Shown here piece after piece: positions 18,180 to 43,898 of a stretch of DNA of 62,634 nt. Location: positions 1-62,634 of IMG/VR virus record IMGVR_UViG_3300028298_000008. One strand, given 5' to 3'. The position numbers were made by a program, and so were the translations under genes. The notes below the pieces were generated by a model that was given only the letters and a program-made list of their open reading frames with translations, was not told the origin of the DNA and searched no databases. Numbering within the stretch: the stretch's first letter is position 1; every line of letters begins with the position of its first letter. Source of the DNA: a virus (lineage: Duplodnaviria; Caudoviricetes).

Positions 18180-18180
18180 C

Positions 18181-22032: not shown

Positions 22033-22207
22033 AAAGTTTGATCAATTACTACAACGGATTCCTTTTTACAAACTTAACTTTCTGTCTGGTTTCTCAAAGA
22101 AAGTTTATTTCTCTTCGCATAAACCTCATCAAGGAGAACAAGAAAAAGCGAGACGAAGGAAACAGATTGAAAAGGGAATGCTAAAGGTGGACAGAGGAAA
22201 GACTTAA
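22025..22207 (+). CDS. small basic hypothetical protein
   Basis: AGGAGG RBS. Confidence 0.6.
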   Translation: MNKKFDQLLQRIPFYKLNFLSGFSKKVYFSSHKPHQGEQEKARRRKQIEKGMLKVDRGKT

Positions 22208-22530: not shown

Positions 22531-22545
22531 AAAGGAGGTCTACTG

Positions 22546-22752
22546 ATGAAAAAAGAAATTGCTCTATGTAAATCTTTGTTAAAGAAAATCTCTACATCAT
22601 ACAAAATTATTGCCAAGGAAAGCGATAAACTCAGAGTTATTTATGATAATCTTGAAGCTGTTTTGAACTCCATAGAGTCGGCACAAGAAAATTTCGCCCG
22701 TGGCGTTGAAGAAATAGAACAAGGATTAGATGAAATAAGCCAATACTTATAA
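22546..22752 (+). CDS. small coiled-coil protein
   Basis: AGGAGG RBS; helical pattern. Confidence 0.65.
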   Translation: MKKEIALCKSLLKKISTSYKIIAKESDKLRVIYDNLEAVLNSIESAQENFARGVEEIEQGLDEISQYL

Positions 22753-22764
22753 AGGAGGTTATTA

Positions 22765-23523: not shown

Positions 23524-23535
23524 CAGGAGGTTTTA

Positions 23536-24189: not shown

Positions 24190-24200
24190 GGAGTATTATT

Positions 24201-25217
24201 ATGTTAAAAAAAATAGCTATAGGCCTCACCCACGGCCATTGCCCAAAATGGCTTCAGACCTGCATTCATTCTCTGAAGCGGTATTACAACGAAGTTGGAA
24301 TGGACATCTATGTAGCCTGCTCATGGCCAGGGCATCCAAGCATCAAAGCTTTGACGGAAACTCCTCTCGGAGAAAATGTCACCCTGATTGATTGTGAACG
24401 AAGAAAGCACAGCCACGCAACAGGGCTTGAAGAAATTCTTGAACTCATTTGGGATAAGGATTATGATTTCTTCTTCACCTGTGAAACAGATTGCCGAGCA
24501 ATGAAGGACGGCTGGCTTGACTGGTTCCACAAGTATTTGCTGATGAGCAGTCATTTCGGAATTGCCGGCTTCTATTGGGATGAAGGAACAAATCATCAGA
24601 ACATCAATGCCTCCGGAACACTATACAGAATGGGGATGCTGAAACGCTACCATCAGGAATGTCGGGACAATAATGAAGGCATGTTTTGGCACCCAAGAGG
24701 CAATCGACACGATACAGAAATGGGGATGGATCCATCAATCAAAGACGTTGTCGGCTGTTTCGCCGAAACACGGGGAATCAAAGACCCTACAGACCCACAG
24801 AAAGAGATCATCATGCGCGGCGTTCCTCAGGCCTCTTGGTTTGAACCTGGCCAATGGTTGTATGCTCGCCTCCAAGCAGAGTGGGGGGAGGTAAGAGTGC
24901 CTTGCGATCATATTTATCTCCACACTCCAGGACAGCCAAGTGTCTACACACCAGAAGGAACATACTACGGAGGCAAAAAAGATCCGTACTTCATTCACTA
25001 TTGGGGAGGGACTCGGTGCTATGATTTCCTCAAACATCCAGTCAATGACAATTTCGTGAAGAATGGATCACCATGGTGGATCAAGCGGGAAGATGCCGTT
25101 TGGAGAGAAGAAGTTCCTGAAGAATACCGGCAGATCGTTCACCAGCTCAACATTGAAGCAAATGTAGAGCAGAAGATGAGGGAGAATCTTGGAATCTTTG
25201 TTCCGGAGGCTATGTAA
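24201..25217 (+). CDS. GT-A-fold glycosyltransferase-like protein
   Basis: WLQTCIHSLKRY, HATGLE, FFFTCETDC (DxD-like), IHYWGGT; cluster context. Confidence 0.55.
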   Translation: MLKKIAIGLTHGHCPKWLQTCIHSLKRYYNEVGMDIYVACSWPGHPSIKALTETPLGENVTLIDCERRKHSHATGLEEILELIWDKDYDFFFTCETDCRAMKDGWLDWFHKYLLMSSHFGIAGFYWDEGTNHQNINASGTLYRMGMLKRYHQECRDNNEGMFWHPRGNRHDTEMGMDPSIKDVVGCFAETRGIKDPTDPQKEIIMRGVPQASWFEPGQWLYARLQAEWGEVRVPCDHIYLHTPGQPSVYTPEGTYYGGKKDPYFIHYWGGTRCYDFLKHPVNDNFVKNGSPWWIKREDAVWREEVPEEYRQIVHQLNIEANVEQKMRENLGIFVPEAM

Positions 25218-25426
25218 TGTTTTTTGGCAAAACAACGGAGGTCGTTAAACTCCTTATTGATAATCCTAAACACATTATGGTTGTCCCTTCTAAAAAAGTG
25301 CGAAGGAGAATCATAAAGCTGTTCAAATTGCCTGTGAGTGTGTCCAGACGTATTAAGACTCCTCCTTGTCCGGACACCACGTTAGAGGGTCGATGTTTTT
25401 ATTGGTTTGATGAACCACTGGAGTGA
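25217..25426 (+). CDS. hypothetical protein
   Basis: GGAGG RBS, TAATG overlap. Confidence 0.55.
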   Translation: MFFGKTTEVVKLLIDNPKHIMVVPSKKVRRRIIKLFKLPVSVSRRIKTPPCPDTTLEGRCFYWFDEPLE

Positions 25427-25440
25427 GGAAAGGATATATT

Positions 25441-25737
25441 ATGACCAAACAAGAAATACTTGATTTTATCAACCAACTACCAGACCGTGACAATTATGAC
25501 ATCGGTCTGGAGGCGGACACCTTATATATTCATGTGAAACGGTTTAAACTCACATCTAAAGACGGGACTGCCAGGAGGCACTGCGAAGTTGAAATAGATG
25601 GAAAACTCATTAGTGGTGTGTCCCATTTAGAAATAATAGCAGACCCTAAACAACCCGGATACATTAACATCAAAATGATGCTTTTACCAAACACTATAAT
25701 AACGGAAGGGGGTGATTCCCATCAACTTCCAACTTGA
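25441..25737 (+). CDS. hypothetical protein
   Basis: AAGGA RBS, packed ORF. Confidence 0.6.
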   Translation: MTKQEILDFINQLPDRDNYDIGLEADTLYIHVKRFKLTSKDGTARRHCEVEIDGKLISGVSHLEIIADPKQPGYINIKMMLLPNTIITEGGDSHQLPT

Positions 25738-26551
25738 GACCAGCTCTTACTGTAATTTGAGATGTGTAGAATGCCCGCATCGCCTGATGAAAAGGAGACA
25801 GTCATTGATGTCCTATGATACCTTTTCCAAAATTTTGCACGACTACATTCTGCCTTATAAGGATATGAATAGATGTGCAGGGCATCAGCCAACAATTATT
25901 CTACACAAAGATGGGGAGCCGTTGCTCAACCATAATTTAACAACCTTCATAAAAATGATCTCTTACGCAGACCCAAAGTTGAAGATAGACATTTACACAA
26001 ACGGTCTCCTTCTTACGGAAGAGTTCATTCGTTTCTTAGGCACTATGCCAAATCCTATTTGGCTACTTGTATCGTTTCACTTCTATAATTATGATGAAAC
26101 AGGTAATGATTATGAAAGCACAAATGAAGTTCTGCTGAAGGCGCTTGATTATAAGCCTTCAAATGTAGACCTGATCTTCGTATCTCATGTCACCAGATTT
26201 ATAAATGAGAGAAGATTACTTGCTTGGCAAGGTTTCTGGAAAATGGAAGCCTCTTCAAGAAACGTGAAGCTTGAGGTGCACATAAATCCACACATCAACC
26301 CATGGACAGGCTTGATCGATGAACCGAATTGTGTAAAGTTCGGTGGTTGTCCGTATGCAGATTTCGGCCATATATTCTTTGGCGCCACCGGGAATGTTGT
26401 TCCTTGTTGCATGGATTTGGAGGAACAGATCACTTTCGGCAATATTCAAAAAGATGACCCTGCTGAAGTAATAGAGAAGCTGAAATTCTTCTACGAAGGA
26501 TTGAACAAAAAAGAGCTTTTACCGCCTCTATGCGAGAGATGTATGCTTTAA
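25712..26551 (+). CDS. radical SAM / SPASM-twitch enzyme
   Basis: CNLRCVECP, DGEPLL, YTNG, C...GNVVPCCMD...FGNI, LCERC. Confidence 0.88.
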   Translation: MIPINFQLETSSYCNLRCVECPHRLMKRRQSLMSYDTFSKILHDYILPYKDMNRCAGHQPTIILHKDGEPLLNHNLTTFIKMISYADPKLKIDIYTNGLLLTEEFIRFLGTMPNPIWLLVSFHFYNYDETGNDYESTNEVLLKALDYKPSNVDLIFVSHVTRFINERRLLAWQGFWKMEASSRNVKLEVHINPHINPWTGLIDEPNCVKFGGCPYADFGHIFFGATGNVVPCCMDLEEQITFGNIQKDDPAEVIEKLKFFYEGLNKKELLPPLCERCML

Positions 26552-26642
26552 AGCAGAAAAGCGCAAATAGACACAGTTTTGTGTGAAATTTAATCGGTTT
26601 TGAAGGGGCTTTACGATGAAAAATTTAATAGGCAAAGAGGAT

Positions 26643-28430
26643 ATGCTCTTGAACCAACGAAACAAACAATCTCTTCCCTCAGAGTTTTATGATGCCGACT
26701 ATTATCTCAGGGGAATTGAAACAGGTAAAAGCTGTTATCAAAACTATCGCTGGTTGCCAGAGTTGACAATGCCAATGGTCATGAGGATCATTGATTATCT
26801 TCATATTCGTCCAGATCAAACTATCCTTGATTATGGGTGCTTTCCTGCTGGAGTCAAAATCTTAATGGGGAATAAAAATTATAAAAATATAGAGGAAATT
26901 TGTGTTGGGGAGGAAATAACAACCTCCAAAGGAAGTATAAAAAGGGTGTTATCTGCTTCTAAACGAAAGGTTAAGAAAACTATTATTATACATCTTTCTC
27001 ATAAAATGAAGATAGAATCTTCTTTGGAACACCCCTTCCTTTGTCAAAAAAGAGAGGAGGTATTATGTCGCCCATCAGGATGGAATGGCACATGCAACAC
27101 AAATCACCCTAAAGGATGCTCAAAATGTCATAAAAAGGGAAAGTATGATAGTCCTTATTTTGTAAATGCAGAGGATTTAAAACCTGGAGATTATTTATGC
27201 CTCCCAAGATTTTCTAAAAAAGAATATTTCATAGAAAAAGATGATTGGGCAGAATTTCTTGGTTTTTACTTAGCCGAAGGTAATCTTATTTATTCCCATA
27301 AGCATCATAATAAACCCCATAATATAGGAGGACTTGAATTTACTTTCCATATAAAGGAAAAGAATTATGCAGAAAGAATTGTGTTTCTTTCTAAAAAACT
27401 TGGGGGAGTTTCCACATCTGTTCGTGAATGTGAAGAAAGGCACACTCTTACTGTTTTAGTTTTTGGTAAAGTATTAGCAGAAGAGGTTTTGAGATTAGGA
27501 GGTCAAAAAGCAGATAAAAAAAAGCTCGCCCCCGAAATAATTAATACTTGGAAAGATTCTTCTATCCGAAAATTAGTAATTTCTTGGTTAAAAGGAGATG
27601 GTTGTCTTTTTCATAATCCTATAAATGGAGGAACCGTTTGGGGGGGATGTTCCATATCCCATGATCTTATTTTAGGAATGAGACAAATTTTACTTAGACT
27701 TGGTATTATGAACACTTTAACAAAAATAAAAAAGAAAGTGGATAGAAGACAAGCTTATAATCTTACTATTTATGGAAGATTTAATATCAACAAACTGAAT
27801 GAGAAAGAACAAAGAACAACCAATACTTCTATTCAAAATAGAATGTCTGATGATTATATCTTTGTACCGATCAGAAAAATAAAAATAAAAAACAAAAAAA
27901 CATTTGTTTACAATATGGAAGTGCAAGGAGATCACACCTATATTGCAAATGATCTTTGTGTTCATAACTGTTCATTAGGATTTGTCGTAAAAGCTTTCCG
28001 ACTTCTCCACAGACAAGCATGGGGATTCGATATAAGCAAATATGCTATCGACAATGTGGATCCTATGGTAAAACCATACTGCTTCACCTCTACCAATCTT
28101 GTGGAGATACCAGAGAGCTTTGATTATTGTATAGCCAAGGACGTTCTCGAACATATCAGTTATGAATGCATAGAGAACATCCTTAAATATATCAATGCCA
28201 AGAACATCTTCGCCATTATTCCACTTGGTAGTAATGACAAGTATGAAGCCCCATCAAACGACCTTGATATTTCCCACATCATCTGTGAGCAATTGGATTG
28301 GTGGCTTGAAACCTTTGCTCATTCGAACTGGGAATTTATTCACTTTGGTTATCGTATTGATGGCATCAAAGATTCTTATTATAGGAAGTATCCACGAGCA
28401 CATGGATTCTTTTTTTGTAAAAGGAGGTAG
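26643..28430 (+). CDS. class I SAM methyltransferase interrupted by an intein
   Basis: After removing the intein, motif I reads ILDYGCSLG, followed by GFDISKYA and FDYCIAKDVLEHI; N-terminal FYDADYY. Start may instead be 26616. Confidence 0.88.
   Translation: MLLNQRNKQSLPSEFYDADYYLRGIETGKSCYQNYRWLPELTMPMVMRIIDYLHIRPDQTILDYGCFPAGVKILMGNKNYKNIEEICVGEEITTSKGSIKRVLSASKRKVKKTIIIHLSHKMKIESSLEHPFLCQKREEVLCRPSGWNGTCNTNHPKGCSKCHKKGKYDSPYFVNAEDLKPGDYLCLPRFSKKEYFIEKDDWAEFLGFYLAEGNLIYSHKHHNKPHNIGGLEFTFHIKEKNYAERIVFLSKKLGGVSTSVRECEERHTLTVLVFGKVLAEEVLRLGGQKADKKKLAPEIINTWKDSSIRKLVISWLKGDGCLFHNPINGGTVWGGCSISHDLILGMRQILLRLGIMNTLTKIKKKVDRRQAYNLTIYGRFNINKLNEKEQRTTNTSIQNRMSDDYIFVPIRKIKIKNKKTFVYNMEVQGDHTYIANDLCVHNCSLGFVVKAFRLLHRQAWGFDISKYAIDNVDPMVKPYCFTSTNLVEIPESFDYCIAKDVLEHISYECIENILKYINAKNIFAIIPLGSNDKYEAPSNDLDISHIICEQLDWWLETFAHSNWEFIHFGYRIDGIKDSYYRKYPRAHGFFFCKRR
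26838..27968 (+). mobile_element. intein with LAGLIDADG homing endonuclease (377 aa) in the methyltransferase
   Basis: Block A CFPAGVKI, block B SLEHPF, FLGFYLAEGN, WLKGDG, VYNMEV...YIAN...VHN followed by Cys+1. Confidence 0.95.
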
Positions 28431-33754: not shown

Positions 33755-34393
33755 TTATTTGGTCATAATCGTTTTAATGTTTGCCGCTGCCACTGTCATC
33801 ACCTTACCAGGAGCGATGCCGAAGATTTTGTGAGTCCAGCCAGACGTAGCATCATGCGTGATCTTAGGAATTAAACTGGGATCAACGGCATAATGTCTTG
33901 ACCAGTAGCTAACCCAATTTTCATCATTAATATTAAGGACAAGACTGAGTGTGCTTTGCGCTGCACCAACAGCATCATTCCAGATGTTTGTTATATTAAA
34001 ATTATGCCACGCGTATCGTGCTGGAACAGAAACACTTACCGCATTTGTCGTCGTGTAGTCAGTGCCACTTCCCGAACACCCCCCGCCATTCCAATTTGTT
34101 GAGGCTTTATACTGATTCCAGTTACTGACGACAGGGTTCCAGCCACCTGCACCTTCCGTCCAGTCTGTAATTAACATTCTCGATACAACCCCTTTGTCAG
34201 CAACGGCAGATCTATTTGAAACGTAAAGTGATAATACTGCTGAGGTAACTGTAGATAGCCCAGTAATATTAAATGCTATAATACCCCGGCGAGTCGTGGT
34301 TCCATCTAATATTATTTCTGTATCAGCACCCCAATTGGTAGTAGAGTATCCTGCCCTCATAAAATTGTCTTTTAGTGCATTTAATACAGTCAT
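33755..34393 (-). CDS. DNRLRE/CBM96-like beta-sandwich virion protein
   Basis: KDNFMRAGYSTTNWG...RRGIIAFNITGL...VTSAVLSLY...WTEG...WN...FNITNI...PKIT; GGAGG RBS at the true start 34393. Confidence 0.72.
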   Translation of the reverse strand: MTVLNALKDNFMRAGYSTTNWGADTEIILDGTTTRRGIIAFNITGLSTVTSAVLSLYVSNRSAVADKGVVSRMLITDWTEGAGGWNPVVSNWNQYKASTNWNGGGCSGSGTDYTTTNAVSVSVPARYAWHNFNITNIWNDAVGAAQSTLSLVLNINDENWVSYWSRHYAVDPSLIPKITHDATSGWTHKIFGIAPGKVMTVAAANIKTIMTK

Positions 34394-34893
34394 ACCACCT
34401 CCACCAGCACTAAAGCGGGCAGGAATAACAGTATATCCGCAGCCAGAGCCACGCCGACCACCTGAATCTGATCGCCAGTTTGATTTGGTACAGTTTGATT
34501 TAATGCACCTGCTGTATGTGCTGTATCCGCTCCTGAACCAGCATAGACCAGATCGCCCACTGTCCATCCCGGATTAAGGGTATGAAGGTGAACAATAGTC
34601 CCTGGTAGCAGAAAGACGCCTACCGCATCTGCGCTGATAGTTGCCGCCGCCATCACACTACCGGGCATAGTCGCCGCGCCGTCCGCATCAGTCAAGGCCG
34701 CCTCACCGCTTGCATTGATAAAACATAGCTGGCCGAGGGCTACGTTTTCATGGGCTGTCAAGGTAACTATATTCCCTTCCCATGTATCAGCAGCAGGGGC
34801 AGGAGCTGTATCAATGGAATGGCCATTTAGGTCAAGATCCCCACCAAGTTGTGGAGTGGTATCTTTGACGATATTCTCTCCCAATTTAAGCAT
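34390..34893 (-). CDS. virion structural / tail accessory protein
   Basis: DTTPQLGGDLDLNG; Ala/Gly/Thr-rich; WTVGDLVY, QVVGVA. Confidence 0.65.
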   Translation of the reverse strand: MLKLGENIVKDTTPQLGGDLDLNGHSIDTAPAPAADTWEGNIVTLTAHENVALGQLCFINASGEAALTDADGAATMPGSVMAAATISADAVGVFLLPGTIVHLHTLNPGWTVGDLVYAGSGADTAHTAGALNQTVPNQTGDQIQVVGVALAADILLFLPALVLVEVV

Positions 34894-34904
34894 CAAACAC
34901 CTCC

Positions 34905-35231
34905 TTAGCTCCTCCTCATACCAGATAGATGGAATGAGCAAGATTCCCCAGAATTTGCTTTCACTCTGATCTGTTCCAGATTCCGAGCATTTACACTTAA
35001 CTCGTGTATATCATTTCCATCAATTGTTTTATCATAGGCAAGAAAGGATGCCACCGCAGCAGGGGATTCCCCTGATGGAGAATGGGCTACTCTGTAAGAT
35101 TGAATCAAAGCAGACTGATTTACAATCCTAACAATCCCAACAACATCTGCATTTGCAGGCACCTCATATAGTTGAGCCTCTGTCACATTTGCTGGTTTCA
35201 GCGCAGCTAATCTTAAATACTGAACAGTCAT
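34905..35231 (-). CDS. small virion accessory protein (beta-rich)
   Basis: LYEVPA...IVNQ...FLAYD...SFHLSG; two SGE motifs. Confidence 0.65.
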   Translation of the reverse strand: MTVQYLRLAALKPANVTEAQLYEVPANADVVGIVRIVNQSALIQSYRVAHSPSGESPAAVASFLAYDKTIDGNDIHELSVNARNLEQIRVKANSGESCSFHLSGMRRS

Positions 35232-35545: not shown

Positions 35546-36790
35546 TTAATGAGACAGATATTCAATATCAATAAGCATCTTTGTACCTATGCCAGTATTT
35601 ACTGTTTGTCTTGCTTGTAAAACTCCAGCAACAAATTGAAGTTCTATATGTGCACCATTAGGTCTGGATAAATAAGTTATGTTCTCATATCCCAAACAAC
35701 CTCCAGCATGAGCCAAGCAAGTTCGATCATTCTCATGTCCAAACTCATCTTCATATAAAACGCCCACAAGAGCGGAGAATCCCATCCCTGAAGAAATGAC
35801 CAATTTTGTATTATACCACATTCCGTTTTCAGGCAGTGTGATACGTGTCTTTACATTTGTCACGGAGCTGTAAGTGTTCTGCAAAAGCATGTTCAAGAAT
35901 TGTGGTGTTGATCTATGACCAAGAACCTCATCAATTCTTCTGATCATATTCAAAGACAAATGGGTCTTCCAATCAATGTCTCCTACCAACACTTCACAAA
36001 GCTTCAGTGTAGAAGTGAATCTCCTTGATATTTGGTATTCTATATCTTCTACAGATGCTCCTTCGAAGAAATCCTTTAATGTGACTTGTCTGTTGGAATC
36101 AACAGAAGCTATCTCATAGACAACTTTACCGTTCCTCACCTTGAGGAAATGTGTTAAAGGATCAATATTGTATTGCCACAAAGTTCTCTTGCCCATAATT
36201 GTTTTGGAGTTTCTTGTTGCCGAAATCACACCTTCTATATATTGAGTAAGTCCTCCAAATAGAATTGCTGCTGCTCCCCCCACAACAGCTCCGCCGATCA
36301 TAGAGCTTTCATCCTCAATTATGTCAATATCCGCAGAGCCACCAGCAACAGCACCACCAAGAAACTCCCAAATAAGTTTTCTTAGGACTACTGCCTCTCC
36401 ACCAGCAACAGCGCCACCAAGCATATCAACAATATATTGATGCAAAGTGGAATAATCAAAAGAACCTCCAGCAACTCCTCCACCAGACATTGCCATTAGT
36501 AATCGAGCATACCAACTTGTCAATCCGCCAGCAACAGCACCACCAAGCATATTAACAAGTTGTGTTCTGTTAAAGCCTGCTGATCCTCCGGAGATTCCCC
36601 CTCCCACCATATCAAATACATAGGCATTCCTTTCAAAGAGATCGTCTCCATCCAAAGACCAATACAGATCAAAATCTGTGCCTACAGAAGGCATCAAATC
36701 CCCAGAGCCATCAACTTCCCATTGCCCCTCTGTAGAAACAGAAGCCAACGGCTGTAAATCATTATTAATATCTCTTTCCCACGTGGACAT
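35546..36790 (-). CDS. virion protein with GGAVAGG repeats; C-terminal half paralogous to 37251-37982
   Basis: Six (M/F)xGGxxxGG repeats; shared GDIDW, IRRID, LYEDE, CLAH, YLSRPNG motifs. Confidence 0.7.
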   Translation of the reverse strand: MSTWERDINNDLQPLASVSTEGQWEVDGSGDLMPSVGTDFDLYWSLDGDDLFERNAYVFDMVGGGISGGSAGFNRTQLVNMLGGAVAGGLTSWYARLLMAMSGGGVAGGSFDYSTLHQYIVDMLGGAVAGGEAVVLRKLIWEFLGGAVAGGSADIDIIEDESSMIGGAVVGGAAAILFGGLTQYIEGVISATRNSKTIMGKRTLWQYNIDPLTHFLKVRNGKVVYEIASVDSNRQVTLKDFFEGASVEDIEYQISRRFTSTLKLCEVLVGDIDWKTHLSLNMIRRIDEVLGHRSTPQFLNMLLQNTYSSVTNVKTRITLPENGMWYNTKLVISSGMGFSALVGVLYEDEFGHENDRTCLAHAGGCLGYENITYLSRPNGAHIELQFVAGVLQARQTVNTGIGTKMLIDIEYLSH

Positions 36791-36802
36791 ATAATCTATT
36801 CC

Positions 36803-37231
36803 TTATGTAGGAGTTCCTTTTGACAACTGAAATTTTGGTGTCACCAAAATCTGGTCGCCGTTGTTTACAGGAGTAAATGCCTGAGCAAACTTCTCCGCCC
36901 AAACAAGAACACCATCTGCATCAACAACAAAATAACCGTAGACCGTTCCATTTGTTGTTAGTGGTCCAGTGAAAGCAAACGTCTGTTGGGCGTAGATGGC
37001 ATCACTTGGATCATTAGCAGGGGTTACTGTCCAGCTCCCATTACTCAGGGTTTTCGCTGCATAGCCTCCTCCCAATGCCTCAGTGTAGGTGCCTGCCACA
37101 TCGGTGTCGGCGGGTGTTACATCCGTAGCGAACAGTTTTAAAGTTAAATCTTTTCCTCCAGCCGCCCAATCATCATTGAAAAAAGCCTTTAAAGCCACAT
37201 CCGCTCCAACATCTGCAAGTACAAGAGCCAT
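36803..37231 (-). CDS. tail/virion structural protein
   Basis: LKLF...YTEA.GGGYAAKTL...W...YGYFV...WAEKF, a common phage tail-associated pattern. Confidence 0.7.
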   Translation of the reverse strand: MALVLADVGADVALKAFFNDDWAAGGKDLTLKLFATDVTPADTDVAGTYTEALGGGYAAKTLSNGSWTVTPANDPSDAIYAQQTFAFTGPLTTNGTVYGYFVVDADGVLVWAEKFAQAFTPVNNGDQILVTPKFQLSKGTPT

Positions 37232-37250
37232 TTTCCTTACCTCCTATATT

Positions 37251-37982
37251 TTATACATGAATCATATAATTACCAAACACAGTCAGCTTTGAATCCAAAC
37301 TCGAATTAACAATCTGCCTAACCTGCATCTCACCTGATATAAACTGAAGTTCAATATGCTCTCCATTTGGTCTTGATAAGTATGCTACAGCTTCTCCACT
37401 AACAGGACCACCATAGCCACCAATATGAGCGAGACATGATCTATCATTCCCATGAGCGTTTTCGTCTTCATAGAGCACGTTAATGAGGCCAGAGAACGCT
37501 TCCGCAGCATCAACTACAAGATCAGTATCATACCAAGTGTTCACAACAGGATTCAATTGGGTGAAGAATAAAGTATTTGACTCTCCACTCGCAGAACTCA
37601 GCTTCAGCCCTGCAAACTGAGGCACTGCATTATGACCAAGCAGTGTATCAATCCTCCTGATAACATTCGTGGTCAAATGAATTGGCCAATCAATGTCGCC
37701 AGGATTGATTTCTTGAAGCTCCAGAGTAGGCGTCCAATCTCTTGAAATCTGATACTCACCAGAGATAATATTCTCTCCACTATAAGCAGGGGTGATTGTG
37801 AGGGCTTCATTGCCATCAACAGAACTAACGGTGTGGATATTCCAATCATTCAGAAGTTTGAAGGAATCACCAACTTCGACTTCGGTTAAGAAGGTTGTGC
37901 CTATTCCCCGAACCTCATTCAAACTTCCTCCAAGAAGGAGAGATTCCCCACTTATAGTAACATACCCCGTTCTGTATTGCAT
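37251..37982 (-). CDS. tail accessory protein carrying six SGE motifs
   Basis: QYRTGYV...VRGIGTTF...VGD tail-fibre N-terminal-like motif; six SGE; paralog of the C-half of 35546-36790. Confidence 0.72.
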   Translation of the reverse strand: MQYRTGYVTISGESLLLGGSLNEVRGIGTTFLTEVEVGDSFKLLNDWNIHTVSSVDGNEALTITPAYSGENIISGEYQISRDWTPTLELQEINPGDIDWPIHLTTNVIRRIDTLLGHNAVPQFAGLKLSSASGESNTLFFTQLNPVVNTWYDTDLVVDAAEAFSGLINVLYEDENAHGNDRSCLAHIGGYGGPVSGEAVAYLSRPNGEHIELQFISGEMQVRQIVNSSLDSKLTVFGNYMIHV

Positions 37983-37985
37983 AAT

Positions 37986-38297: not shown

Positions 38298-41200
38298 TTA
38301 TCTTTTAATTTCCAGCAAAACCAAAGATCGACTGGAAGCTATCACAGCATCTTCCCCAGACCAAGCATAAACAGCTAAAGAGTAAGTATAAGTTCCTGCA
38401 TCAGGATTGTCCAAATAACTAAGAGGAACGGAACAATTGGTATAAATACCAGCATGCCCCCCATGCACAAAACTAATAGCCGTTATCTGTGTAACTCCTC
38501 GATATAGGAGGAGGATACCTATTAAAACTGCACCTGCTGTAGTTGCCCTTGCTTGAATACCGCCAGTGACAAGCACTTTTCCTCCTGTTACTGTTATTTC
38601 ACAAGACAACACCGTCTCTGCTGTGTTGTCAGCAGGGCAAGAGATGTCATTTCCATTATACGAGGAGGAAGTCGTTGTTACTGCATTTGCCACCAAATTC
38701 CCTGTGACAATAATATCTCCACCAATTGTTAATTCAGTCCCATTCCAATTTAAATATTTACTGGAATCCCCAATATAGAATTTTGCCCTATCTGAATCAG
38801 AATCATCAATTCCGAGGATAAATCCAGATTCAGTATTTGTAAAATCTGTCTTCCCTGCCCGAATAACTGAATCCCCTGTCCCAGCAGCAACAGCCAAAAC
38901 AATATCCTTCGATGTAATAGTACCAGCAAGAAGTTTACTCACTGCTAATTCATCCACAGTAATAATATTTCCTGTGGTTGTGTTTACTAAAGCAACCCCT
39001 GAGGTATTTGTTATCTGAATACCATAGACTCCTGTGGACAACAAACCAATTTTTATTCGATCTCGAATCCCATCATTAACAACAATATTCTTATTGGTTC
39101 CCGACAACAACAAAGAGTTTGCTCCAAGATAAATTTCCTGGGCACCAATGGTTCCTGCTGTAAGTTTGCTAACAGCTAAAGAATCAATCTTTGCATTTGT
39201 AATTATTGCGTCTTTAATCTGAGCCGACAGGGTGATCAACTCTCCAGTGGTTACTTTGTCCGAAGTAACAGCCCCTGCTTGAATGTCTGCTGTTCCTACC
39301 TGAGCTGTTGTGGCATTTAATTCAGAAGCATAATTGGAATAATTTCCAGACCAATCATAAGCTCGAACTTTGGCATAATATTTTATAGCAGGAGAGCCAT
39401 CATAAACAACGACTGTGGAAAGGCCTTTGTAGAAAACGGAATATACACCACCATCAGGTTTTATTGAGACCTCATACCCCGCTAAATCCTCTTCAGTATT
39501 AGCTGTCCAAGAACAAATGATTTTTTTCAAGCCAGCAGCAACGGCAAATCCTGTAGGCGTTGCCGGAGCTGAAGAGTCTGCTATGCAAGTGGTATCTACT
39601 TCTGCACTGAAAGCAGATTCATTCCCCCATTTATCCACACCTTTTATTTTAACATAATATTTAATACCTGGCAAAAGACCAATAAACTTATGCTTCAATG
39701 CAGTGGAAAAAACCTCAGTGTACCTCGTTTCTCCATCTCGTCTCAATTGAAGAGCATAATTATTAAAATCATCCTCAGTATTAGCATTCCAAGTGGCTTC
39801 AATATAAGCAGTAATCGCCTGAGCAATTTGCTCAACCCCTGAAGACAAAGCAAGCCCTGTAGGCACATCCGGAGGAACATTATCTGTTGGATCAGTGGAA
39901 GAAATCCGAACCAAAGTTTCCGTTGAATAATTAAGTTCATCCAATCCAAACGTATCATAAGCAGCAACCTTAAAGTACCAATTCCCTGAATCCAGTTGAA
40001 TTAGTGGGTGAGTATCCTTGCCTTGATACAACAAATTTGCTGAACTCGGAGTAAAATCCGCTGTTGTTGATCCATAAATAACATATCCTTGAAAATCAGG
40101 CTCATCATTCGCATCATACACTATCAGAACCGCTTTAATTCGTGCAGTGTAAACAACATTGCTTGGCATATCTGGAGCAGGGTTTAAAACTGTTAATCTG
40201 GCCGGTATCCTTGAAGTACGGTAATACCTATCTCTTGCTCTCACTTCAATAGTAAAATGACGATCAATGCCATCTTCATAATTTTTCTCATAAGTATAAA
40301 CATAGGTATTTACCGTTACATATTCAGTCCTCCTCAACGTGTTAACGGCGTCAAATATTTTCACTTGATAATCTTTAAACCATTGAGGAGGATAATGATA
40401 ACCAGCACCAGTAGGTTCTTCGCCTGCCGGATGCACATCTAATCCCACAGCAGATATTTCATTCCAAACCAATTTACAATCTCTGCCAGTAAACTCCACA
40501 GCATTGCCCTGACCATCAATATGAAGACCAGACACAATATCCTCTAAAGTTTCATCACCTGACCAATCACCACTCCCTGTGGTAGTGATGCTTATTGTAG
40601 GCGAAACACTGTCTCTTGATCTGACGCCACTCCAAGATTCACTGATTATGAGAAAAGTATATGTTATTTTTGGTTCAGCATTAATAAAAACATAACTCTC
40701 GGAAATGGTCAAGCCTGCATATGAATAAACCGATTGTCCTGTCTTCTTAAAAAACACTAAGGCTTGTTTATATAGAGCATCATTTGGTCGCTTGAAAGTA
40801 ATCAGAATGTCTCTGACAACATTACCAGACTCATCCAGTCGAGAACTTTCGGCAACTGTAATATTAGTTACCACAGATACAGAACCCTGAGGAGTATAAT
40901 CAGGTGTTTGTACAATAGGTGTTCCTGTGTCAACAGAATACACATTTGCATTATATTCAATAGCTCTAATGGTGGCTATCTGATCATCAGTCTTTGATAT
41001 ATCTACTACTCGAAAAGGCTTTGTCTCAACCCCAAGTTGACCAAAAGCATAAACATCATATTGAACAGGAATTTCTGAAAATGGAGTAGACACAGTAAGA
41101 ACAGTATAGGAACCTGCCACATTCGTCACTGTTTTGGTAACCAAAGTATCATTCGCTAAGCGAATAAGAATGCCATAAGTAATATCAGCATCAATAGTAA

Positions 41201-43898
41201 CCGTTTGATCAAGCGTCACAGAATTAACTGTGGCACTGACAATCCTCCCTCCAGCATCTCCCCATCTTGGTGTATCATGTTGAAAATCAATGACATCACC
41301 AATCATACAAGCGATTGCGTCAATGTCTGCGGCAAACTGTATCGTGCGCTTCCGGTATTGATTCCCCAATAAGCAGTATTGAGCAAATCGCCAAGCTTCC
41401 GATTCCCTTACAGCCCCAACCAAATAAGTTGACACTTTGTTTGTGGGTCGGTCTATTGAATTATTAAAAATAGAAACGGCATCTTTTTCATAATCTTTAT
41501 CTATATTTCTGTAGGAAACTTCAATTTCTCCCGCCCGATCTTCCAATGGCAGAAAAATTTCCTCAAAAGAATTCTCGATCACATTACCTGAAGAGAATAA
41601 CTGAACGGGAGAGGCGGCTTGCTCAATAACCACAGACAAGTTATATCCATACCAAACAAGCACTGCTCTACAAGTACCACTTATCTGTAATGCAGCCTCC
41701 CAAATAGTTGTAGCCGCATCAAATCCACCATTAAAAGTCAACCTTCTTTCAAGTCCACCACTTCCATCGTTGACAAGGACATCACAAAAATCAGCCCATG
41801 CTTGAAAATCTGTGGTTATAAGACGAGCAGAATCAAACCCTTCAAAGCGAACAACTCCATCAGTGGCAGCTCCAGCAATACATTCCCACCTAACAGTGCC
41901 ATCAACGACCGTCTGTCCTATTGTTGTTGGCCATATCGGCTCTATAGTTCCGGGCACTCCTGCAACAATACATTTATATAAACGACCATTTAGAACATTT
42001 GGTCTCACTTTCTTATTCACTGAATATGTCGGTCTGTAAGTAGAAGACATCCAATTATCATAAAACACAGGCTGTGTTAGTACATCAGAACAAACCCAAG
42101 CAGGATTTGAACTATATTCAATCCGCCAAGAGGCTGTGGCAGAATAATTTACACCAGAAATCCAAATGAAGGAGACGTTGTCTTTTAAAGGAGGAGCGAC
42201 ATTATCTACAGAACTGCTACCAAGTTGAGACCAATAAGCAGCCCAACTGGCTCCGGTAATAGGTCGCTTATCTGCACTTGCAATATGAGCTGCTTTACAA
42301 CGATAATTTTTACCATCTGTCCCAAGAACCTCATCCTTACGATATACACGAACATAACGACCTTCTAAAAGGCAAGAAAATTTTAAACTTCCAGAAAGCT
42401 GATCTGTAGCAAGAGCTTTTATGCCAACCAACACTTTTCGTGGATAGATAAAATCATCGTTGAATACTTCCCTTACAGATAAGAACCAAGAGTCATCAGC
42501 ATATTTAATATCAGAATAATTCTCGTTTATCCTTGTGACAATAATATCGTAATGTCCTTTTGTAAAGGAAACGGGATCTTTCAGGATAAAAGTTTTTGTG
42601 AAGGCACTGTTTTTATTGCTGATTATTCTTGAATAAGCATAGCTTGTTGTCCCGACATCACTTGAAGTTATCCAATGCCAATGCAAAGCTTGGTAGGAAG
42701 TAATGGTTGTTTCCAAACCTGTTTCTGGATCAATTGTCTTAGAAGTAATTGCCTTTGTTACTTGCTGACCTTCATAATGATCCGCATAAACAACTGAACC
42801 TGCTTCTTCTTCGTGCCATAAATTCTGATAGTAAATTCCTCCTTGAACACCAGGCGCATCTGTCCAATAACCAAGACTCCATCTCAAATGAACAGTTGTC
42901 ACATCTCCTGTCCAACCAGATAAGATATATCTCTTTGTTGGGTCGCTCATATGAACAGCTTCCACTTGTATATCAATCTCATGATCCTTAAAGTTTCCGC
43001 TTGAATCCATATGATAAACACCCTTTGGAAAAGTTATATCAACTTCAAGACCATCAAAAACATCTCCCCGTGTTCTGTACACGACAGGAGAGCCAAACAT
43101 AACCTTTCTATTGACAGTGTATTCTGCTTTGGTGTCGTCAAAATTAGGAATTAAAGACTGCGTTATATAACCACCCCGAACGCGGATTTCTATTTTTGTA
43201 TAAGTAGAAATATCCTGATCATTTATCTCAAAAGAAGATAAACTTTTTACTGGTCCCATTTCTAAACAGATTAACAGATTAATGTAATTTTTATCTTCGA
43301 TGTTTTCTGTAAAGGCATCAATTATATTACCAAATACTTTGCTCTTACCATAGAAATAAGGGATTGGTAAACCTTGCTGTTGCGTAGTTACAGGTGACCA
43401 AGAAGCCGTTTGTGACAATGGAGAATCACCAAATGACAAATTGTTTGCATTTAAAGGCAGGAGGGCATCGATCAGCATTCCACCAAGCATCATTCCTCCC
43501 ATACCAACAGCAGCATAGGTGCCATAGTATACTGCTGCCTGAGCTAAACCAGACAATCCTCCTAACCCAGGAACAAGTCCCGACATATATGCTGCCGCAT
43601 ATGGAGCTGCCCACGCAACGGCAACGGTCAAGGCAATAAATGCGATAGTTCGTAAAGCATCCCCATCTTCAACAGAAGGAATAAAAACAGCTTGATCTCC
43701 ATTCCGCAAAGAAACTAAAGGCCAGTCTTCCTCTTTAATCACTCTTCCATTGACAACTACTCGAACATTAATCCCAATAGGGAAATGCAATTGTCTCAGT
43801 TCAAGCAGGGACTCTTTATGATAGGCTATTAAAGAAGTCTCCCGATCTCTCCTTGTGAATGGGTCTTTTATTTTTACAAGACTAATTCGCTCTTCCAC
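38298..43898 (-). CDS. tail tip / central fibre protein (lambda I+J-like fusion) with FN3 repeats
   Basis: N-terminal ubiquitin-like part and hydrophobic stretch, PIPYFYG, SNPAW, FNGGFD, IGDVI, FN3 motifs (YFKVAAYD, YYVKIKGVDKWGNES), IKDAIITNAKI. Confidence 0.9.
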   Translation of the reverse strand: MEERISLVKIKDPFTRRDRETSLIAYHKESLLELRQLHFPIGINVRVVVNGRVIKEEDWPLVSLRNGDQAVFIPSVEDGDALRTIAFIALTVAVAWAAPYAAAYMSGLVPGLGGLSGLAQAAVYYGTYAAVGMGGMMLGGMLIDALLPLNANNLSFGDSPLSQTASWSPVTTQQQGLPIPYFYGKSKVFGNIIDAFTENIEDKNYINLLICLEMGPVKSLSSFEINDQDISTYTKIEIRVRGGYITQSLIPNFDDTKAEYTVNRKVMFGSPVVYRTRGDVFDGLEVDITFPKGVYHMDSSGNFKDHEIDIQVEAVHMSDPTKRYILSGWTGDVTTVHLRWSLGYWTDAPGVQGGIYYQNLWHEEEAGSVVYADHYEGQQVTKAITSKTIDPETGLETTITSYQALHWHWITSSDVGTTSYAYSRIISNKNSAFTKTFILKDPVSFTKGHYDIIVTRINENYSDIKYADDSWFLSVREVFNDDFIYPRKVLVGIKALATDQLSGSLKFSCLLEGRYVRVYRKDEVLGTDGKNYRCKAAHIASADKRPITGASWAAYWSQLGSSSVDNVAPPLKDNVSFIWISGVNYSATASWRIEYSSNPAWVCSDVLTQPVFYDNWMSSTYRPTYSVNKKVRPNVLNGRLYKCIVAGVPGTIEPIWPTTIGQTVVDGTVRWECIAGAATDGVVRFEGFDSARLITTDFQAWADFCDVLVNDGSGGLERRLTFNGGFDAATTIWEAALQISGTCRAVLVWYGYNLSVVIEQAASPVQLFSSGNVIENSFEEIFLPLEDRAGEIEVSYRNIDKDYEKDAVSIFNNSIDRPTNKVSTYLVGAVRESEAWRFAQYCLLGNQYRKRTIQFAADIDAIACMIGDVIDFQHDTPRWGDAGGRIVSATVNSVTLDQTVTIDADITYGILIRLANDTLVTKTVTNVAGSYTVLTVSTPFSEIPVQYDVYAFGQLGVETKPFRVVDISKTDDQIATIRAIEYNANVYSVDTGTPIVQTPDYTPQGSVSVVTNITVAESSRLDESGNVVRDILITFKRPNDALYKQALVFFKKTGQSVYSYAGLTISESYVFINAEPKITYTFLIISESWSGVRSRDSVSPTISITTTGSGDWSGDETLEDIVSGLHIDGQGNAVEFTGRDCKLVWNEISAVGLDVHPAGEEPTGAGYHYPPQWFKDYQVKIFDAVNTLRRTEYVTVNTYVYTYEKNYEDGIDRHFTIEVRARDRYYRTSRIPARLTVLNPAPDMPSNVVYTARIKAVLIVYDANDEPDFQGYVIYGSTTADFTPSSANLLYQGKDTHPLIQLDSGNWYFKVAAYDTFGLDELNYSTETLVRISSTDPTDNVPPDVPTGLALSSGVEQIAQAITAYIEATWNANTEDDFNNYALQLRRDGETRYTEVFSTALKHKFIGLLPGIKYYVKIKGVDKWGNESAFSAEVDTTCIADSSAPATPTGFAVAAGLKKIICSWTANTEEDLAGYEVSIKPDGGVYSVFYKGLSTVVVYDGSPAIKYYAKVRAYDWSGNYSNYASELNATTAQVGTADIQAGAVTSDKVTTGELITLSAQIKDAIITNAKIDSLAVSKLTAGTIGAQEIYLGANSLLLSGTNKNIVVNDGIRDRIKIGLLSTGVYGIQITNTSGVALVNTTTGNIITVDELAVSKLLAGTITSKDIVLAVAAGTGDSVIRAGKTDFTNTESGFILGIDDSDSDRAKFYIGDSSKYLNWNGTELTIGGDIIVTGNLVANAVTTTSSSYNGNDISCPADNTAETVLSCEITVTGGKVLVTGGIQARATTAGAVLIGILLLYRGVTQITAISFVHGGHAGIYTNCSVPLSYLDNPDAGTYTYSLAVYAWSGEDAVIASSRSLVLLEIKR

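What the first reader, a model, noticed from the sequence alone, without database searches (positions are those of the whole stretch)
35546..37982. Paralog pair as a natural control: one copy has six SGE motifs, the other has none at the aligned positions
Seen: the C-terminal half of 35546-36790 aligns by eye with 37251-37982 (YQISR, GDIDW, IRRID..LGH...PQF, WY.T.LV, VLYEDE..H.NDR.CLAH.GG, YLSRPNG.HIELQF). Where one has YSGENIISGEYQ, PVSGEAVAY and QFISGEMQ, the other has FEGASVEDIEYQ, LGYENITY and QFVAGVLQ. Inference: SGE is not needed for the fold and was gained or lost specifically in one copy, as expected for a modification tag. The SGE-free copy instead carries a Gly-rich N-terminal extension.
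Basis: partly seen in the sequence, partly recalled or inferred. Interest (0 to 1): 0.78.

Follow-up and report, generated by a model that had tools for sequence, protein, structure and literature searches.

The report
Ser-Gly-Glu-studded phage side fibre
One of two related side-fibre proteins of an uncultured lake-water phage carries the exact tripeptide Ser-Gly-Glu six times in its surface loops, a motif that other uncultured phages also scatter over their fibres, so it may be a tag read by an enzyme or partner, though no modification has been shown.

Summary
The 243-aa protein A (37251-37982, minus strand) has six SGE. The 414-aa protein B (35546-36790, minus strand) has none. They share 44% identity over 202 residues. 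Six SGE is far above chance: 0.14 are expected, and 0 of 200,000 shuffles reach even five.

Both are short side fibres of a lambda-like siphovirus. Each has an N-terminal OB anchor domain like the F2-pyocin side fibre PyoF13, a trimerising helix and a beta-sandwich tip. They are old paralogues, not a recent duplication. All six SGE arose on the branch leading to A and its 77%-identical relative P0002. No other full-length homologue has any at these sites.

New here:
- SGE recurs at seven or more loop positions of this OB domain across the family.
- Fibres with SGE in the OB domain carry about ten times more SGE in their unrelated C-terminal parts.
- In two other phages a neighbouring central fibre is also SGE-rich.
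- The motif depends on residue order and on Ser specifically.

"Not needed for the fold" and "gained in one copy" are supported. "Modification tag" is plausible (about 0.4) but untested. A hairpin-turn variant is a serious rival. Earlier notes from this scan report similar Ser-Gly motifs on other phage DNA.

The parts
37251..37982 (-). Protein A, 243 aa: short side-fibre protein with six SGE. OB anchor domain aa 1-81 (37740-37982), neck and helix aa 82-126 (37605-37739), beta-sandwich tip aa 127-243 (37254-37604).
   Evidence: ORF. PDB profile hit of the N-domain to F2-pyocin side fibre 25ve_A, E 1.9e-15. AF2 model, mean pLDDT 82.6. C-domain best match 6c72_A residues 664-773, Z 8.4, rmsd 3.0, 104 aligned. 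Trimer model score 0.85 against best control 0.00.
37944..37952 (-). SGE 1 (aa 11-13), in the loop after strand 7-10 of the OB domain. This is the position of the family's usual TNGS hairpin turn.
37773..37781 (-). SGE 2 (aa 68-70), in loop 65-71 of the OB domain.
37755..37763 (-). SGE 3 (aa 74-76), at the bulge between strands 72-75 and 77-80.
37581..37589 (-). SGE 4 (aa 132-134), the first residues of strand 132-143. Residues 132-133 are listed in the predicted trimer interface.
37392..37400 (-). SGE 5 (aa 195-197), in the long loop 190-209, within a short insertion relative to homologues. Residue 196 is listed in the predicted interface.
37329..37337 (-). SGE 6 (aa 216-218). S216-G217 form the two-residue hairpin turn between strands 210-215 and 218-223.
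35546..36790 (-). Protein B, 414 aa: paralogous side-fibre protein with no SGE. Same OB-helix-sandwich body (aa ~177-414) behind an N-terminal extension.
36236..36604 (-). Gly-rich part of B's extension (aa 63-185): six ~20-residue repeats with the core GG[AG][IV][AS]GG. The same kind of extension is present in homologues P0014 and P0015.
36803..37231 (-). 142-aa ORF between the paralogues, no SGE. Only a weak PHROG match (phrog_10467, unknown function). Possible fibre accessory protein (inference from position).
34905..35231 (-). 108-aa ORF of the fibre module with two SGE (aa 53 and 94; 35067-35075 and 34944-34952). No family match.
34390..34941 (-). 183-aa fibre-type ORF with one SGE (aa 78; 34702-34710). 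By my reading of the two printed sequences (no alignment run), its C-terminus resembles the C-terminus of family member P0082.
38298..43898 (-). J-like tip / central-fibre protein, 1866 aa, immediately upstream of A. One SGE at aa 1847.
   Evidence: Pfam Phage-tail_3, FNIII-A_GpJ and fn3; SGE count
10947..28430 (+). Sugar- and enzyme-rich island: a fusion of a group-1 glycosyltransferase domain (Pfam Glycos_transf_1) with a GT9-like domain, a GT2, three Methyltransf_24, a DegT fragment, a WbqC-like protein, a B12-radical SAM, a radical SAM, a radical SAM-SPASM, HNH genes, and an intein-bearing methyltransferase. It is a candidate source of a modifying enzyme, but no link to SGE is shown.

Best explanation
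**What A and B are.** They are two anciently diverged paralogous short side fibres of a lambda-like siphovirus from lake water. Each has an N-terminal OB domain that anchors the fibre to the tail tip, as in the F2-pyocin side fibre PyoF13. Behind it come a helix that trimerises and a C-terminal beta-sandwich tip.

**What happened to A.** In the lineage of A, the exact tripeptide Ser-Gly-Glu was installed six times in loops and turns. Each gain came by point changes that completed partial matches, or sits at or next to a short insertion.

**How general it is.** This is one case of a wider habit. A subset of uncultured phages scatter SGE, usually followed by a hydrophobic or beta-branched residue, over the loops of their fibre proteins only. 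Sites are gained and lost between close relatives.

**Most likely mechanism (inferred, not shown).** SGE is a short surface tag selected as a tripeptide. An enzyme reads it and modifies the serine while the fibre is made in the cytoplasm. O-glycosylation is the leading candidate, because this phage carries a large glycosyltransferase and sugar-tailoring island. B, lacking the tag, would stay unmodified.

**Shown:** the architecture, the paralogy, the statistics, the direction of change and the family-wide pattern.

**Inferred:** that the motif is read by anything, and what the chemistry is.
For: **Architecture**
- OB-domain profile hit to PyoF13 (25ve_A, E 1.9e-15). Passages of PMC13455828 describe that OB domain as the anchor to the central fibre.
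- The gene lies directly after the J-like gene.
- AF2 model pLDDT 82.6.
- The C-domain resembles tailspike C-terminal sandwiches (6c72_A, Z 8.4, rmsd 3.0, 104 aligned).
- Trimer model score 0.85 against best control 0.00. That mark was reached by 20 of 30 solved same-chain pairs and 1 of 23 single chains. Runs agree in at least 90% of contacts and partner pLDDT is at least 88.

**Selection on the tripeptide**
- 6 observed against 0.14 expected; 0 of 200,000 shuffles reach 5.
- All 18 SGE residues are identical in P0002, against 188 of 243 identical overall (P 0.008). Flanks are identical at 26 of 33.
- None of P0013, P0014, P0015, P0016 or B has SGE at the aligned sites.
- The gains fall on the A/P0002 stem.

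**Specificity.** Among 149 family proteins, after residue 115, SGE is 34 observed against 13.1 expected. TGE is 8 against 17.3, SGD 28 against 22.0, EGS 7 against 13.1 and GSE 10 against 13.1.

**A protein- or lineage-level trait**
- Fibres with SGE in the OB domain have 20 SGE in 6,097 aa of non-homologous C-terminal sequence. Fibres without have 7 in 24,625 aa (P 1.8e-9). Without P0023 it is 14 in 5,206 aa, P 8e-7.
- In a second sample of 80 loci the figures are 28 in 3,551 aa against 9 in 12,910 aa.

**Many positions.** SGE starts at 7 or more different loop positions of the OB domain across 116 relatives.

**Turnover.** The homologous central fibres of L011 and L028 (51% identity) share 2 SGE sites and have 3 and 2 private ones.

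**Fibre-restricted.** 10 of the window's 15 SGE lie in 34390-43898.

**Exposure.** SGE 1, 2, 3 and 6 are absent from the predicted trimer interface list, and all six are at strand ends, turns or loops.

**Precedent.** In passages of PMC4358343, the cytoplasmic heptosyltransferase TibC modifies Ser but not Thr in a beta-helical adhesin, for example at N-S-G-G.
Against: - No chemistry was or could be observed.
- No link between SGE and the window's enzymes is shown. The two SGE-rich relatives with the longest records have no match to Pfam Glycos_transf_1 or Glycos_transf_2, but those records are only 37% and 15% complete, so this says little.
- The 703-aa glycosyltransferase shows no sequence likeness to TibC among solved structures.
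- At the first hairpin of the OB domain, SGE takes the place of the family's usual NGS turn. In one subgroup it does so residue for residue.
- NGS is absent (0 against 28, P 0.003) from the C-terminal parts of SGE-bearing fibres. This fits two interchangeable turn sequences at least as well as a tag.
- The association between OB-domain SGE and C-terminal SGE has only 4 phylogenetically independent, well-supported contrasts, so it cannot be tested with correction for kinship.
- Two of A's six sites (132-133 and 196) touch the predicted trimer interface.
- The C-terminal domain of the model has only middling confidence, with block means of 51-91.
Confidence: 0.4

Rival explanations
1. SGE is a structural beta-turn or loop variant. 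It is an alternative to the family's usual Asn-Gly-Ser hairpin turn that some lineages prefer, for example for folding kinetics, or for chemical stability of long-lived particles because Asn-Gly deamidates easily (recalled chemistry). Nothing reads it and it is not modified.
For: - All six sites in A are at strand ends, turns or loops. Site 6 is a clean two-residue hairpin turn.
- At the first OB hairpin, SGE replaces TNGS, and does so residue for residue in one subgroup.
- The residue after E is hydrophobic or beta-branched in 27 of 34 contexts, as at the start of a strand.
- NGS is absent from the C-terminal parts of SGE-bearing fibres (0 against 28, P 0.003).
- SG-x tripeptides are mildly enriched in these fibres in general.
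Against: - Exactness of the motif. TGE is depleted, and SGD, SGK, SGS and SGN are not raised in the SGE-bearing group.
- SGE occurs in several registers within the same loops, and in long loops that are not hairpins (A sites 2 and 5).
- Asn-Gly as a whole is not significantly lower: 6.4 against 8.0 per 1,000 aa, with NGT unchanged. That weakens the deamidation version.
- Six convergent gains on one branch are hard to explain by drift among equivalent turns.
Confidence: 0.33
2. SGE is a non-covalent interaction motif. Repeated acidic Ser-Gly-Glu loops bind a partner by avidity. The partner could be the host surface, the tail-tip or central-fibre protein to which the OB domain docks, or an assembly chaperone.
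For: - Three of A's six sites, and most family-wide sites, lie in loops of the OB anchor domain. In PyoF13 that domain contacts the central fibre (passages of PMC13455828).
- In L011 and L028 the neighbouring central fibre is also SGE-rich.
- The motif is confined to fibre proteins.
Against: - B presumably docks on the same tail without any SGE.
- The window's own J-like protein has only 1 SGE in 1,866 aa.
- Sites turn over quickly between homologues. That is unusual for a fixed protein-protein interface.
Confidence: 0.15
3. The signal is at the RNA or DNA level. SGE codons such as TCA-GGN-GAA make Shine-Dalgarno-like AGGNGA words that pause ribosomes at domain turns, or they form a nucleic-acid motif.
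For: In 32 SGE sites with DNA in hand, Ser is TCA in 17, against 60 of 318 Ser elsewhere in the same genes. Gly is GGG in 11 of 32, against 53 of 324.
Against: - Serine is required, yet it is encoded by both TCN (26) and AGY (6) codons.
- Other residues whose codons end in A before Gly-Glu are not enriched: TGE is depleted and AGE is at expectation.
- A's six sites use four different nine-base strings.
- The absence of C- or G-ending Ser codons may be simple CpG avoidance (inference).
Confidence: 0.04
4. The six SGE are chance plus shared ancestry and have no meaning.
For: A and P0002 are one lineage, so the six sites are one observation in evolutionary terms.
Against: - 0 of 200,000 shuffles reach five copies.
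- Full conservation across 23% divergence.
- Independent enrichment in non-homologous parts of other fibres and in other phages.
Confidence: 0.03

Closest known systems
F2-type pyocin side fibre PyoF13 (PDB 25ve) and its duplicated fibre modules pyoF13-15 / pyoF16-18
   Same: - The N-terminal ~70-residue OB domain is homologous (profile E 1.9e-15).
- The gene lies after the J-like central-fibre gene of a lambda-like tail.
- A trimer is predicted.
- The cluster holds two diverged copies of the fibre gene, as the paper reports for pyoF13 and pyoF16 (passages of PMC13455828).
   Different: - The C-terminal tip is not detectably the R-pyocin-type receptor-binding domain. Its best fold matches are tailspike C-terminal sandwiches.
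- A is much shorter (243 against 363 aa).
- In the passages read, the paper mentions no SGE motif and no Gly-rich extension.
- Attachment to a helical shaft could not be tested here.
C-terminal beta-sandwich domains of Acinetobacter and Klebsiella phage tailspikes and fibres (6c72_A, 6e1r_A, 5w5p_A, 7xy1_A)
   Same: Fold-level likeness of A residues 127-243: Z 8.4, 7.5, 6.9 and 6.8, with 99-109 residues aligned. The position at the distal end of a trimeric host-recognition protein is also the same.
   Different: Sequence identity is only 5-10%, and these Z values are in the range the tool calls common. There is no depolymerase beta-helix in A. Shared fold does not show shared function.
Bacterial autotransporter heptosyltransferases (TibC/AAH) acting on TibA/AIDA-I
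   Same: This is a working analogy only. A cytoplasmic glycosyltransferase hyper-modifies an adhesin at many serines but not threonines, and one mapped site reads N-S-G-G (passages of PMC4358343). SGE is likewise Ser-specific and Ser-Gly based, and lies on a host-binding protein.
   Different: - No TibC-like enzyme was found. The window's 703-aa transferase has only a weak GT9 Pfam match (E 3.6e-5) and no TibC hit among solved structures.
- The substrates there are beta-helices, not OB or sandwich domains.
- No modification is shown here.
Virion glycosylation of mycobacteriophages by phage-encoded glycosyltransferases
   Same: It is a precedent that tailed phages can sugar-coat their own structural proteins. 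I know it from recall and from the abstract of PMC11256854 in a search listing, which says two putative glycosyltransferases suggest capsid glycosylation.
   Different: The targets there are capsid and tail-tube proteins (recalled), not fibres. I know of no SGE-type sequon there.

Membership tests
PyoF13-type side fibre of lambda-like tails and F-type pyocins | N-terminal OB anchor domain homologous to PyoF13 residues ~2-72 | tested here: met
   Profile of 118 family sequences hits 25ve_A at E 1.9e-15 over chain residues 2-72. The AF2 model shows a small beta-barrel at residues 1-81 with pLDDT mostly 94-98.
PyoF13-type side fibre of lambda-like tails and F-type pyocins | Encoded downstream of the J-like central-fibre gene in a lambda-type tail-tip module | tested here: met
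   The order is tape measure, DUF2460-like, Phage_tail_L, NlpC/P60, the J-like protein (Phage-tail_3, FNIII-A_GpJ), then A.
PyoF13-type side fibre of lambda-like tails and F-type pyocins | Homotrimer held by a stem or helix | tested here: met
   In silico only. Three copies score 0.85 against best control 0.00. The mark was reached by 20 of 30 solved same-chain pairs and 1 of 23 single chains. Contacts agree at 90% or more and pLDDT is at least 88. The interface runs along helix 98-126 and the C-domain. The pass may partly reflect likeness to solved fibres.
PyoF13-type side fibre of lambda-like tails and F-type pyocins | Receptor-binding domain like that of R-type pyocin fibres | tested here: inconclusive
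   No such chain appears among the best 50 fold matches. The top matches are tailspike C-terminal sandwiches. Absence from the list does not exclude it.
PyoF13-type side fibre of lambda-like tails and F-type pyocins | [quoted passage not shown] | not testable with these tools
   This needs a structure of the tail tip. Only the paper's description was read.
Protein-modification sequon (short tag read by a transferase) | Motif over-represented in target proteins and dependent on residue order and identity | tested here: met
   6 observed against 0.14 expected in A. SGE is enriched while TGE, EGS and GSE are not. The rate is about 10-fold higher in SGE-type fibres.
Protein-modification sequon (short tag read by a transferase) | Sites lie in accessible loops or turns and turn over between relatives | tested here: met
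   DSSP of the model. Four of six sites are absent from the predicted interface. SGE occupies 7 or more loop positions across the family. L011 and L028 share 2 sites and have 3 and 2 private ones. This rests on a model only.
Protein-modification sequon (short tag read by a transferase) | Co-occurrence of the motif with a cognate enzyme gene across genomes | tested here: inconclusive
   Pfam Glycos_transf_1 and Glycos_transf_2 were found in the window but not in the records of L011 or L003, which are 37% and 15% complete. The 82-kb contig of P0002 could not be fetched.
Protein-modification sequon (short tag read by a transferase) | Covalent modification of the tagged residue | not testable with these tools
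   Needs mass spectrometry.
Two-residue beta-hairpin turn variant (alternative to Asn-Gly-Ser) | Occupies the same backbone position as the turn of homologues | tested here: inconclusive
   True for the first OB hairpin in one subgroup, and for A site 6. Not true for A sites 2 and 5, which lie in long loops, nor for the several registers seen at the OB loops.

The most novel reading that the evidence does not exclude
Ser-Gly-Glu is the sequon of an undescribed serine-modification system, most likely O-glycosylation, that decorates the host-recognition fibres of a group of uncultured freshwater and sediment phages. Sites are gained and lost like a glycan shield. In this phage the enzyme would come from the 10.9-28.4 kb sugar island, and fibre A but not its paralogue B would be coated. 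That would give one virion two chemically different side fibres.
Probability: 0.3. Interest if true: 0.8.

Novelty: new variant of a known kind. Interest (0 to 1): 0.5.

Why it matters
Phage fibres decide which bacteria a phage can infect. If a three-residue tag marks where fibres are chemically modified, it would add a hidden layer to host range, to particle stability and to recognition by defences or grazers. It would also give a simple sequence rule for finding modified virion proteins in metagenomes. The A/B pair would then be a ready-made experimental contrast, with the same fold, tagged and untagged. If the motif turns out to be only a preferred hairpin turn, it is still a clear example of convergent, lineage-specific turn engineering in a very large and modular family of fibre anchor domains (3,009 hits among representatives).

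Tried and rejected
**Homologue searches**
- tblastn of A against 50,697 GenBank phage records gave no match. P0090 found only 8 distant records, so no cultured phage carries an SGE-type fibre that I could find.
- The search for related loci with A, P0002 and the A4 alignment found no relative in viral contigs or genome contigs. The 82-kb NCBI contig of P0002 therefore stayed out of reach.
- The degenerate DNA pattern scan gave only 10 loci.
- One alignment (A5) was too diverse to search with.

**Structure**
- The first AF2 run with 4 sequences was useless, pLDDT 36.
- Foldseek on the whole model gave only weak hits.

**Link to enzymes**
- Glycosyltransferase search in the records of SGE-rich relatives was uninformative because the records are fragments.
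- PHROG and Pfam gave nothing for five island or module proteins.
- The 703-aa transferase has no close solved relative, best E 0.022.

**Other checks**
- The Atlas search of B's Gly-rich extension gave nothing above 0.77.
- Phylogenetically independent contrasts yielded only 4 supported pairs, so no test was possible.
- Sequencing runs: 11 lake-water metagenome runs were listed and no RNA holder was listed. Contigs of 4 runs laid on 35546-37982 were identical, apart from one divergent contig end in B, so they gave no population variation at SGE codons.
- Literature: the terms 'SGE motif', 'Ser-Gly-Glu' and 'phage' returned 4 irrelevant papers. I found no paper on such a motif with that search and the one.
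- Earlier scan notes hold nothing on this genome or on A.

**Explanations rejected**
- Rejected as main explanations: a single repeated DNA word, compositional bias (S, G and E frequencies are alike in both groups), and proteome-wide bias (other ORFs are at background).
Full report
**1. What is there**

The window is a single IMG/VR virus record of 62,634 bases, estimated 69% complete. The minus-strand half holds a lambda-type morphogenesis module:
- terminase
- portal, with an intein and a fused methyltransferase
- protease
- HK97-type capsid protein
- tail tube
- tape measure
- DUF2460-like protein
- Phage_tail_L
- NlpC/P60
- a 1,866-aa J-like protein

Directly after J come A (37251-37982, 243 aa), a 142-aa ORF, B (35546-36790, 414 aa) and several small fibre-type ORFs. 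Runs that hold this DNA are labelled lake water metagenome.

**2. The observation**

- BLASTP aligns A 41-242 with B 216-414 at 44% identity, E 6e-57.
- A has SGE at residues 11, 68, 74, 132, 195 and 216. B has none.
- From A's composition 0.14 SGE are expected. No shuffle out of 200,000 had more than four, and no tripeptide of any kind reached six in 20,000 shuffles.
- The nine-base strings differ and use both serine codon families.
- B's extension holds six ~20-residue repeats around GG[AG][IV][AS]GG.

**3. What the proteins are**

*Family.* An exhaustive profile search found 3,009 proteins at E <= 0.001. Nearly all match only residues ~1-112, at the N-terminus of proteins of 120 to over 2,000 aa. 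This is a modular fibre anchor domain.

*Solved relatives.* A profile of 118 members hits the solved F2-pyocin side fibre (25ve_A, E 1.9e-15) and a phage 'distal tail protein gp20' (23gd_B). Passages of PMC13455828 describe this part of PyoF13 as an OB domain that docks three fibre trimers on the central fibre. They also note that the pyocin cluster has two diverged fibre modules.

*Model.* With the deep alignment, AlphaFold2 gives pLDDT 82.6. The model has:
- a beta-barrel at residues 1-81
- a helix at 99-115
- a seven-strand sandwich at 132-242

*Fold matches.* The sandwich resembles the C-terminal domains of Acinetobacter and Klebsiella phage tailspikes (6c72_A, Z 8.4, rmsd 3.0, 104 aligned). 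The tool itself calls this Z range common.

*Trimer.* Three copies of A are predicted to form a trimer, score 0.85 against best control 0.00. That mark was reached by 20 of 30 solved same-chain pairs and 1 of 23 single chains. Contacts agree at 90% or more and pLDDT is at least 88. The interface runs along the helix and sandwich, and the OB domains stay free.

So A and B are short side fibres.

**4. Direction of change**

- Full-length homologues are few: P0002 (77% identical, all six SGE kept), P0013, P0014, P0015, P0016, and P0004 for the C-domain.
- None but P0002 has SGE at any aligned site. P0013's 14 listed cluster mates also have none.
- P0014 and P0015 share B's architecture, including the Gly-rich extension.
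- On a maximum-likelihood tree, A+P0002 (100/100) sit on a long stem (0.69), weakly sister to P0013 (76/96). B is elsewhere.
- The pair is therefore old, and the six SGE were gained on the A/P0002 stem.
- The alignment shows how they arose:
  - Site 2 was completed from xGE (P0013 has AGE, P0015 has KGE).
  - Site 3 was completed from xxE.
  - Site 6 was completed from SGx (P0015 has SGK, P0004 has SGH).
  - Site 1 sits next to an insertion, and site 5 sits within one.
- Between A and P0002, 188 of 243 residues are identical but all 18 SGE residues are (P 0.008). Their flanks are average, at 26 of 33.

**5. The motif is wider than this pair**

Among the 150 best family hits, many carry SGE.

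*In the OB domain.* It occurs at seven or more different loop positions. Counted as SGE start positions in A's numbering, the numbers of sequences are 7 at 11, 8 at 12, 2 at 25, 4 at 44, 4 at 56, 20 at 70 and 6 at 73. At the first hairpin it replaces the usual TNGS, in two registers.

*Outside the conserved domain.* SGE is 34 observed against 13.1 expected. TGE is 8 against 17.3, SGD 28 against 22.0, EGS 7 against 13.1 and GSE 10 against 13.1. The motif therefore depends on residue order and on Ser specifically.

*Association within proteins.*

| Group | C-terminal sequence | SGE |
|---|---|---|
| SGE in the OB domain (35 proteins) | 6,097 aa | 20 |
| No SGE in the OB domain (105 proteins) | 24,625 aa | 7 |

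- A, P0002 and eight multi-repeat proteins were left out. P = 1.8e-9.
- Without the richest protein, P0023, it is still 14 in 5,206 aa, P 8e-7.
- These C-terminal parts are unrelated to each other. Only one pair shares more than 10% of 5-mers.
- S, G and E frequencies do not differ between the groups.

*Second sample.* It partly overlaps the first and holds 80 loci from IMG/VR and metagenomes.

| Group | Rest of fibre | Other ORFs in the locus |
|---|---|---|
| OB-domain SGE present (23 loci) | 28 SGE in 3,551 aa | 19 in 25,119 aa |
| OB-domain SGE absent (57 loci) | 9 SGE in 12,910 aa | 35 in 109,394 aa |

Nine of the 19 in the first group's other ORFs lie in two homologous central-fibre proteins.

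*Turnover.* Those two proteins are L011 (710 aa, 5 SGE) and L028 (767 aa, 4 SGE). They are 51% identical, share two SGE sites, and have three and two private ones.

*A dense case.* A collagen-like fibre (L072/L077) packs four SGE into about 85 residues.

*This window.* Ten of its 15 SGE lie in the fibre module: A has 6, p108 has 2, p183 has 1 and the tip of J has 1.

*Context.* The residue after E is V, T, I, A or L in 27 of 34 contexts.

**6. Caveats on these numbers**

- The proteins are related through their OB domains. On the OB tree only four well-supported independent contrasts exist, so the association cannot be tested with correction for kinship.
- The two samples overlap in part.
- The representatives shown are the best 150 of 3,009.

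**7. Where the six sites sit**

| Site | Residues | Position in the model |
|---|---|---|
| 1 | 11-13 | Loop after strand 7-10 |
| 2 | 68-70 | Loop 65-71 |
| 3 | 74-76 | Bulge between strands 72-75 and 77-80 |
| 4 | 132-134 | Start of strand 132-143, in a low-confidence region |
| 5 | 195-197 | Long loop 190-209 |
| 6 | 216-218 | Two-residue hairpin turn |

Sites 1, 2, 3 and 6 are not in the predicted trimer interface list. Residues 132-133 and 196 are.

**8. Explanations**

*Tag (about 0.4).* I commit to this reading: SGE is a surface tag selected as a tripeptide and read by an enzyme that modifies the serine. What favours it:
- the exactness of the motif
- six convergent gains on one branch
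- many registers and loop types
- fast turnover between homologues
- restriction to fibres

This pattern is like that of glycosylation sequons. The window also carries a large island that holds:
- a fusion of a group-1 glycosyltransferase domain with a GT9-like domain
- a GT2
- three Methyltransf_24
- a DegT fragment
- a WbqC-like protein
- three radical SAM enzymes

A working precedent is TibC, which modifies Ser but not Thr of an adhesin, one site being N-S-G-G (passages of PMC4358343).

What counts against it:
- There is no chemistry.
- No enzyme link is shown.
- The NGS/SGE exchange also fits a structural reading.

*Turn variant (about 0.33).* The structural reading explains the positions and the NGS depletion, 0 against 28, P 0.003. 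It does not easily explain the specificity or the non-hairpin sites. Asn-Gly overall is not clearly depleted.

*Other rivals.*
- A binding motif is about 0.15.
- An RNA-level signal is about 0.04. The TCA bias of 17 of 32 is noted, but both serine codon families are used.
- Chance is about 0.03.

**9. Known or new**

The proteins are new members of a known kind, OB-anchored side fibres. I found no paper on an SGE motif in phage proteins with the searches. Earlier notes from this scan on other genomes report other Ser-Gly-type or short motifs enriched on outer tail proteins next to glycosyltransferases. Those are unchecked leads, not support. I rate the finding as a new variant of a known kind, with moderate interest. 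The statistics are solid and the A/B contrast is a neat experiment, but the mechanism is open.

Noticed in passing
window 56836-60519 (-): The portal protein (1,227 aa) carries an intein with a LAGLIDADG domain near its N-terminus and a C-terminal SAM-dependent methyltransferase domain fused to the portal.
   Followed up: no
window 10947-28430 (+): An island of sugar- and cofactor-type enzymes. It holds a fusion of a group-1 glycosyltransferase domain with a GT9-like domain (703 aa), a GT2, three Methyltransf_24, a short DegT fragment, a WbqC-like protein (E 1e-68), a B12-binding radical SAM, a radical SAM and a radical SAM-SPASM. Three HNH endonuclease genes are interspersed, one with an AP2 domain. 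A 604-aa methyltransferase is split by an intein. Its target (virion, DNA or host envelope) is unknown.
   Followed up: partly
window 36236-36604 (-), and proteins P0005-P0012, P0014, P0015: B's ~20-residue GG-x-[IV]-x-GG repeats belong to a repeat type found in many otherwise unrelated phage-like proteins of 240-710 aa. No fold or function was found.
   Followed up: partly
window 33755-34567 (-) and 34390-34941 (-): The 270-aa ORF with a CBM96 match overlaps the 183-aa fibre ORF. Its real start is probably the internal Met 59, right after the stop of the 183-aa ORF. My first ORF filter dropped the 183-aa ORF, so the window total of SGE is 15, not 14.
   Followed up: partly
L011 5714-7846 and L028 10725-13028: Homologous central-fibre proteins after the J-like gene of two other uncultured phages carry 5 and 4 SGE, only 2 of them at shared sites. 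L028's protein has a weak pb4 spike-domain match.
   Followed up: yes
L072 and L077 (match ORFs): A fibre with the OB domain, then an ~85-residue domain with four SGE, then a long collagen-like G-x-x repeat (GIQG / GVTG).
   Followed up: no
SGE codons in window, L003, L011, L024, L028: Serine in SGE is TCA in 17 of 32 sites, against 60 of 318 elsewhere in the same genes, and is never TCC or TCG. Glycine is GGG in 11 of 32, against 53 of 324. The strings often read AGGNGA, which is Shine-Dalgarno-like.
   Followed up: partly
window 35251-35571 (-): The 106-aa ORF holds the motif ...NSDxxIxTQKAxKxxVD..., which also occurs in the long fibre P0023. The module may be a mosaic of fibre pieces.
   Followed up: no
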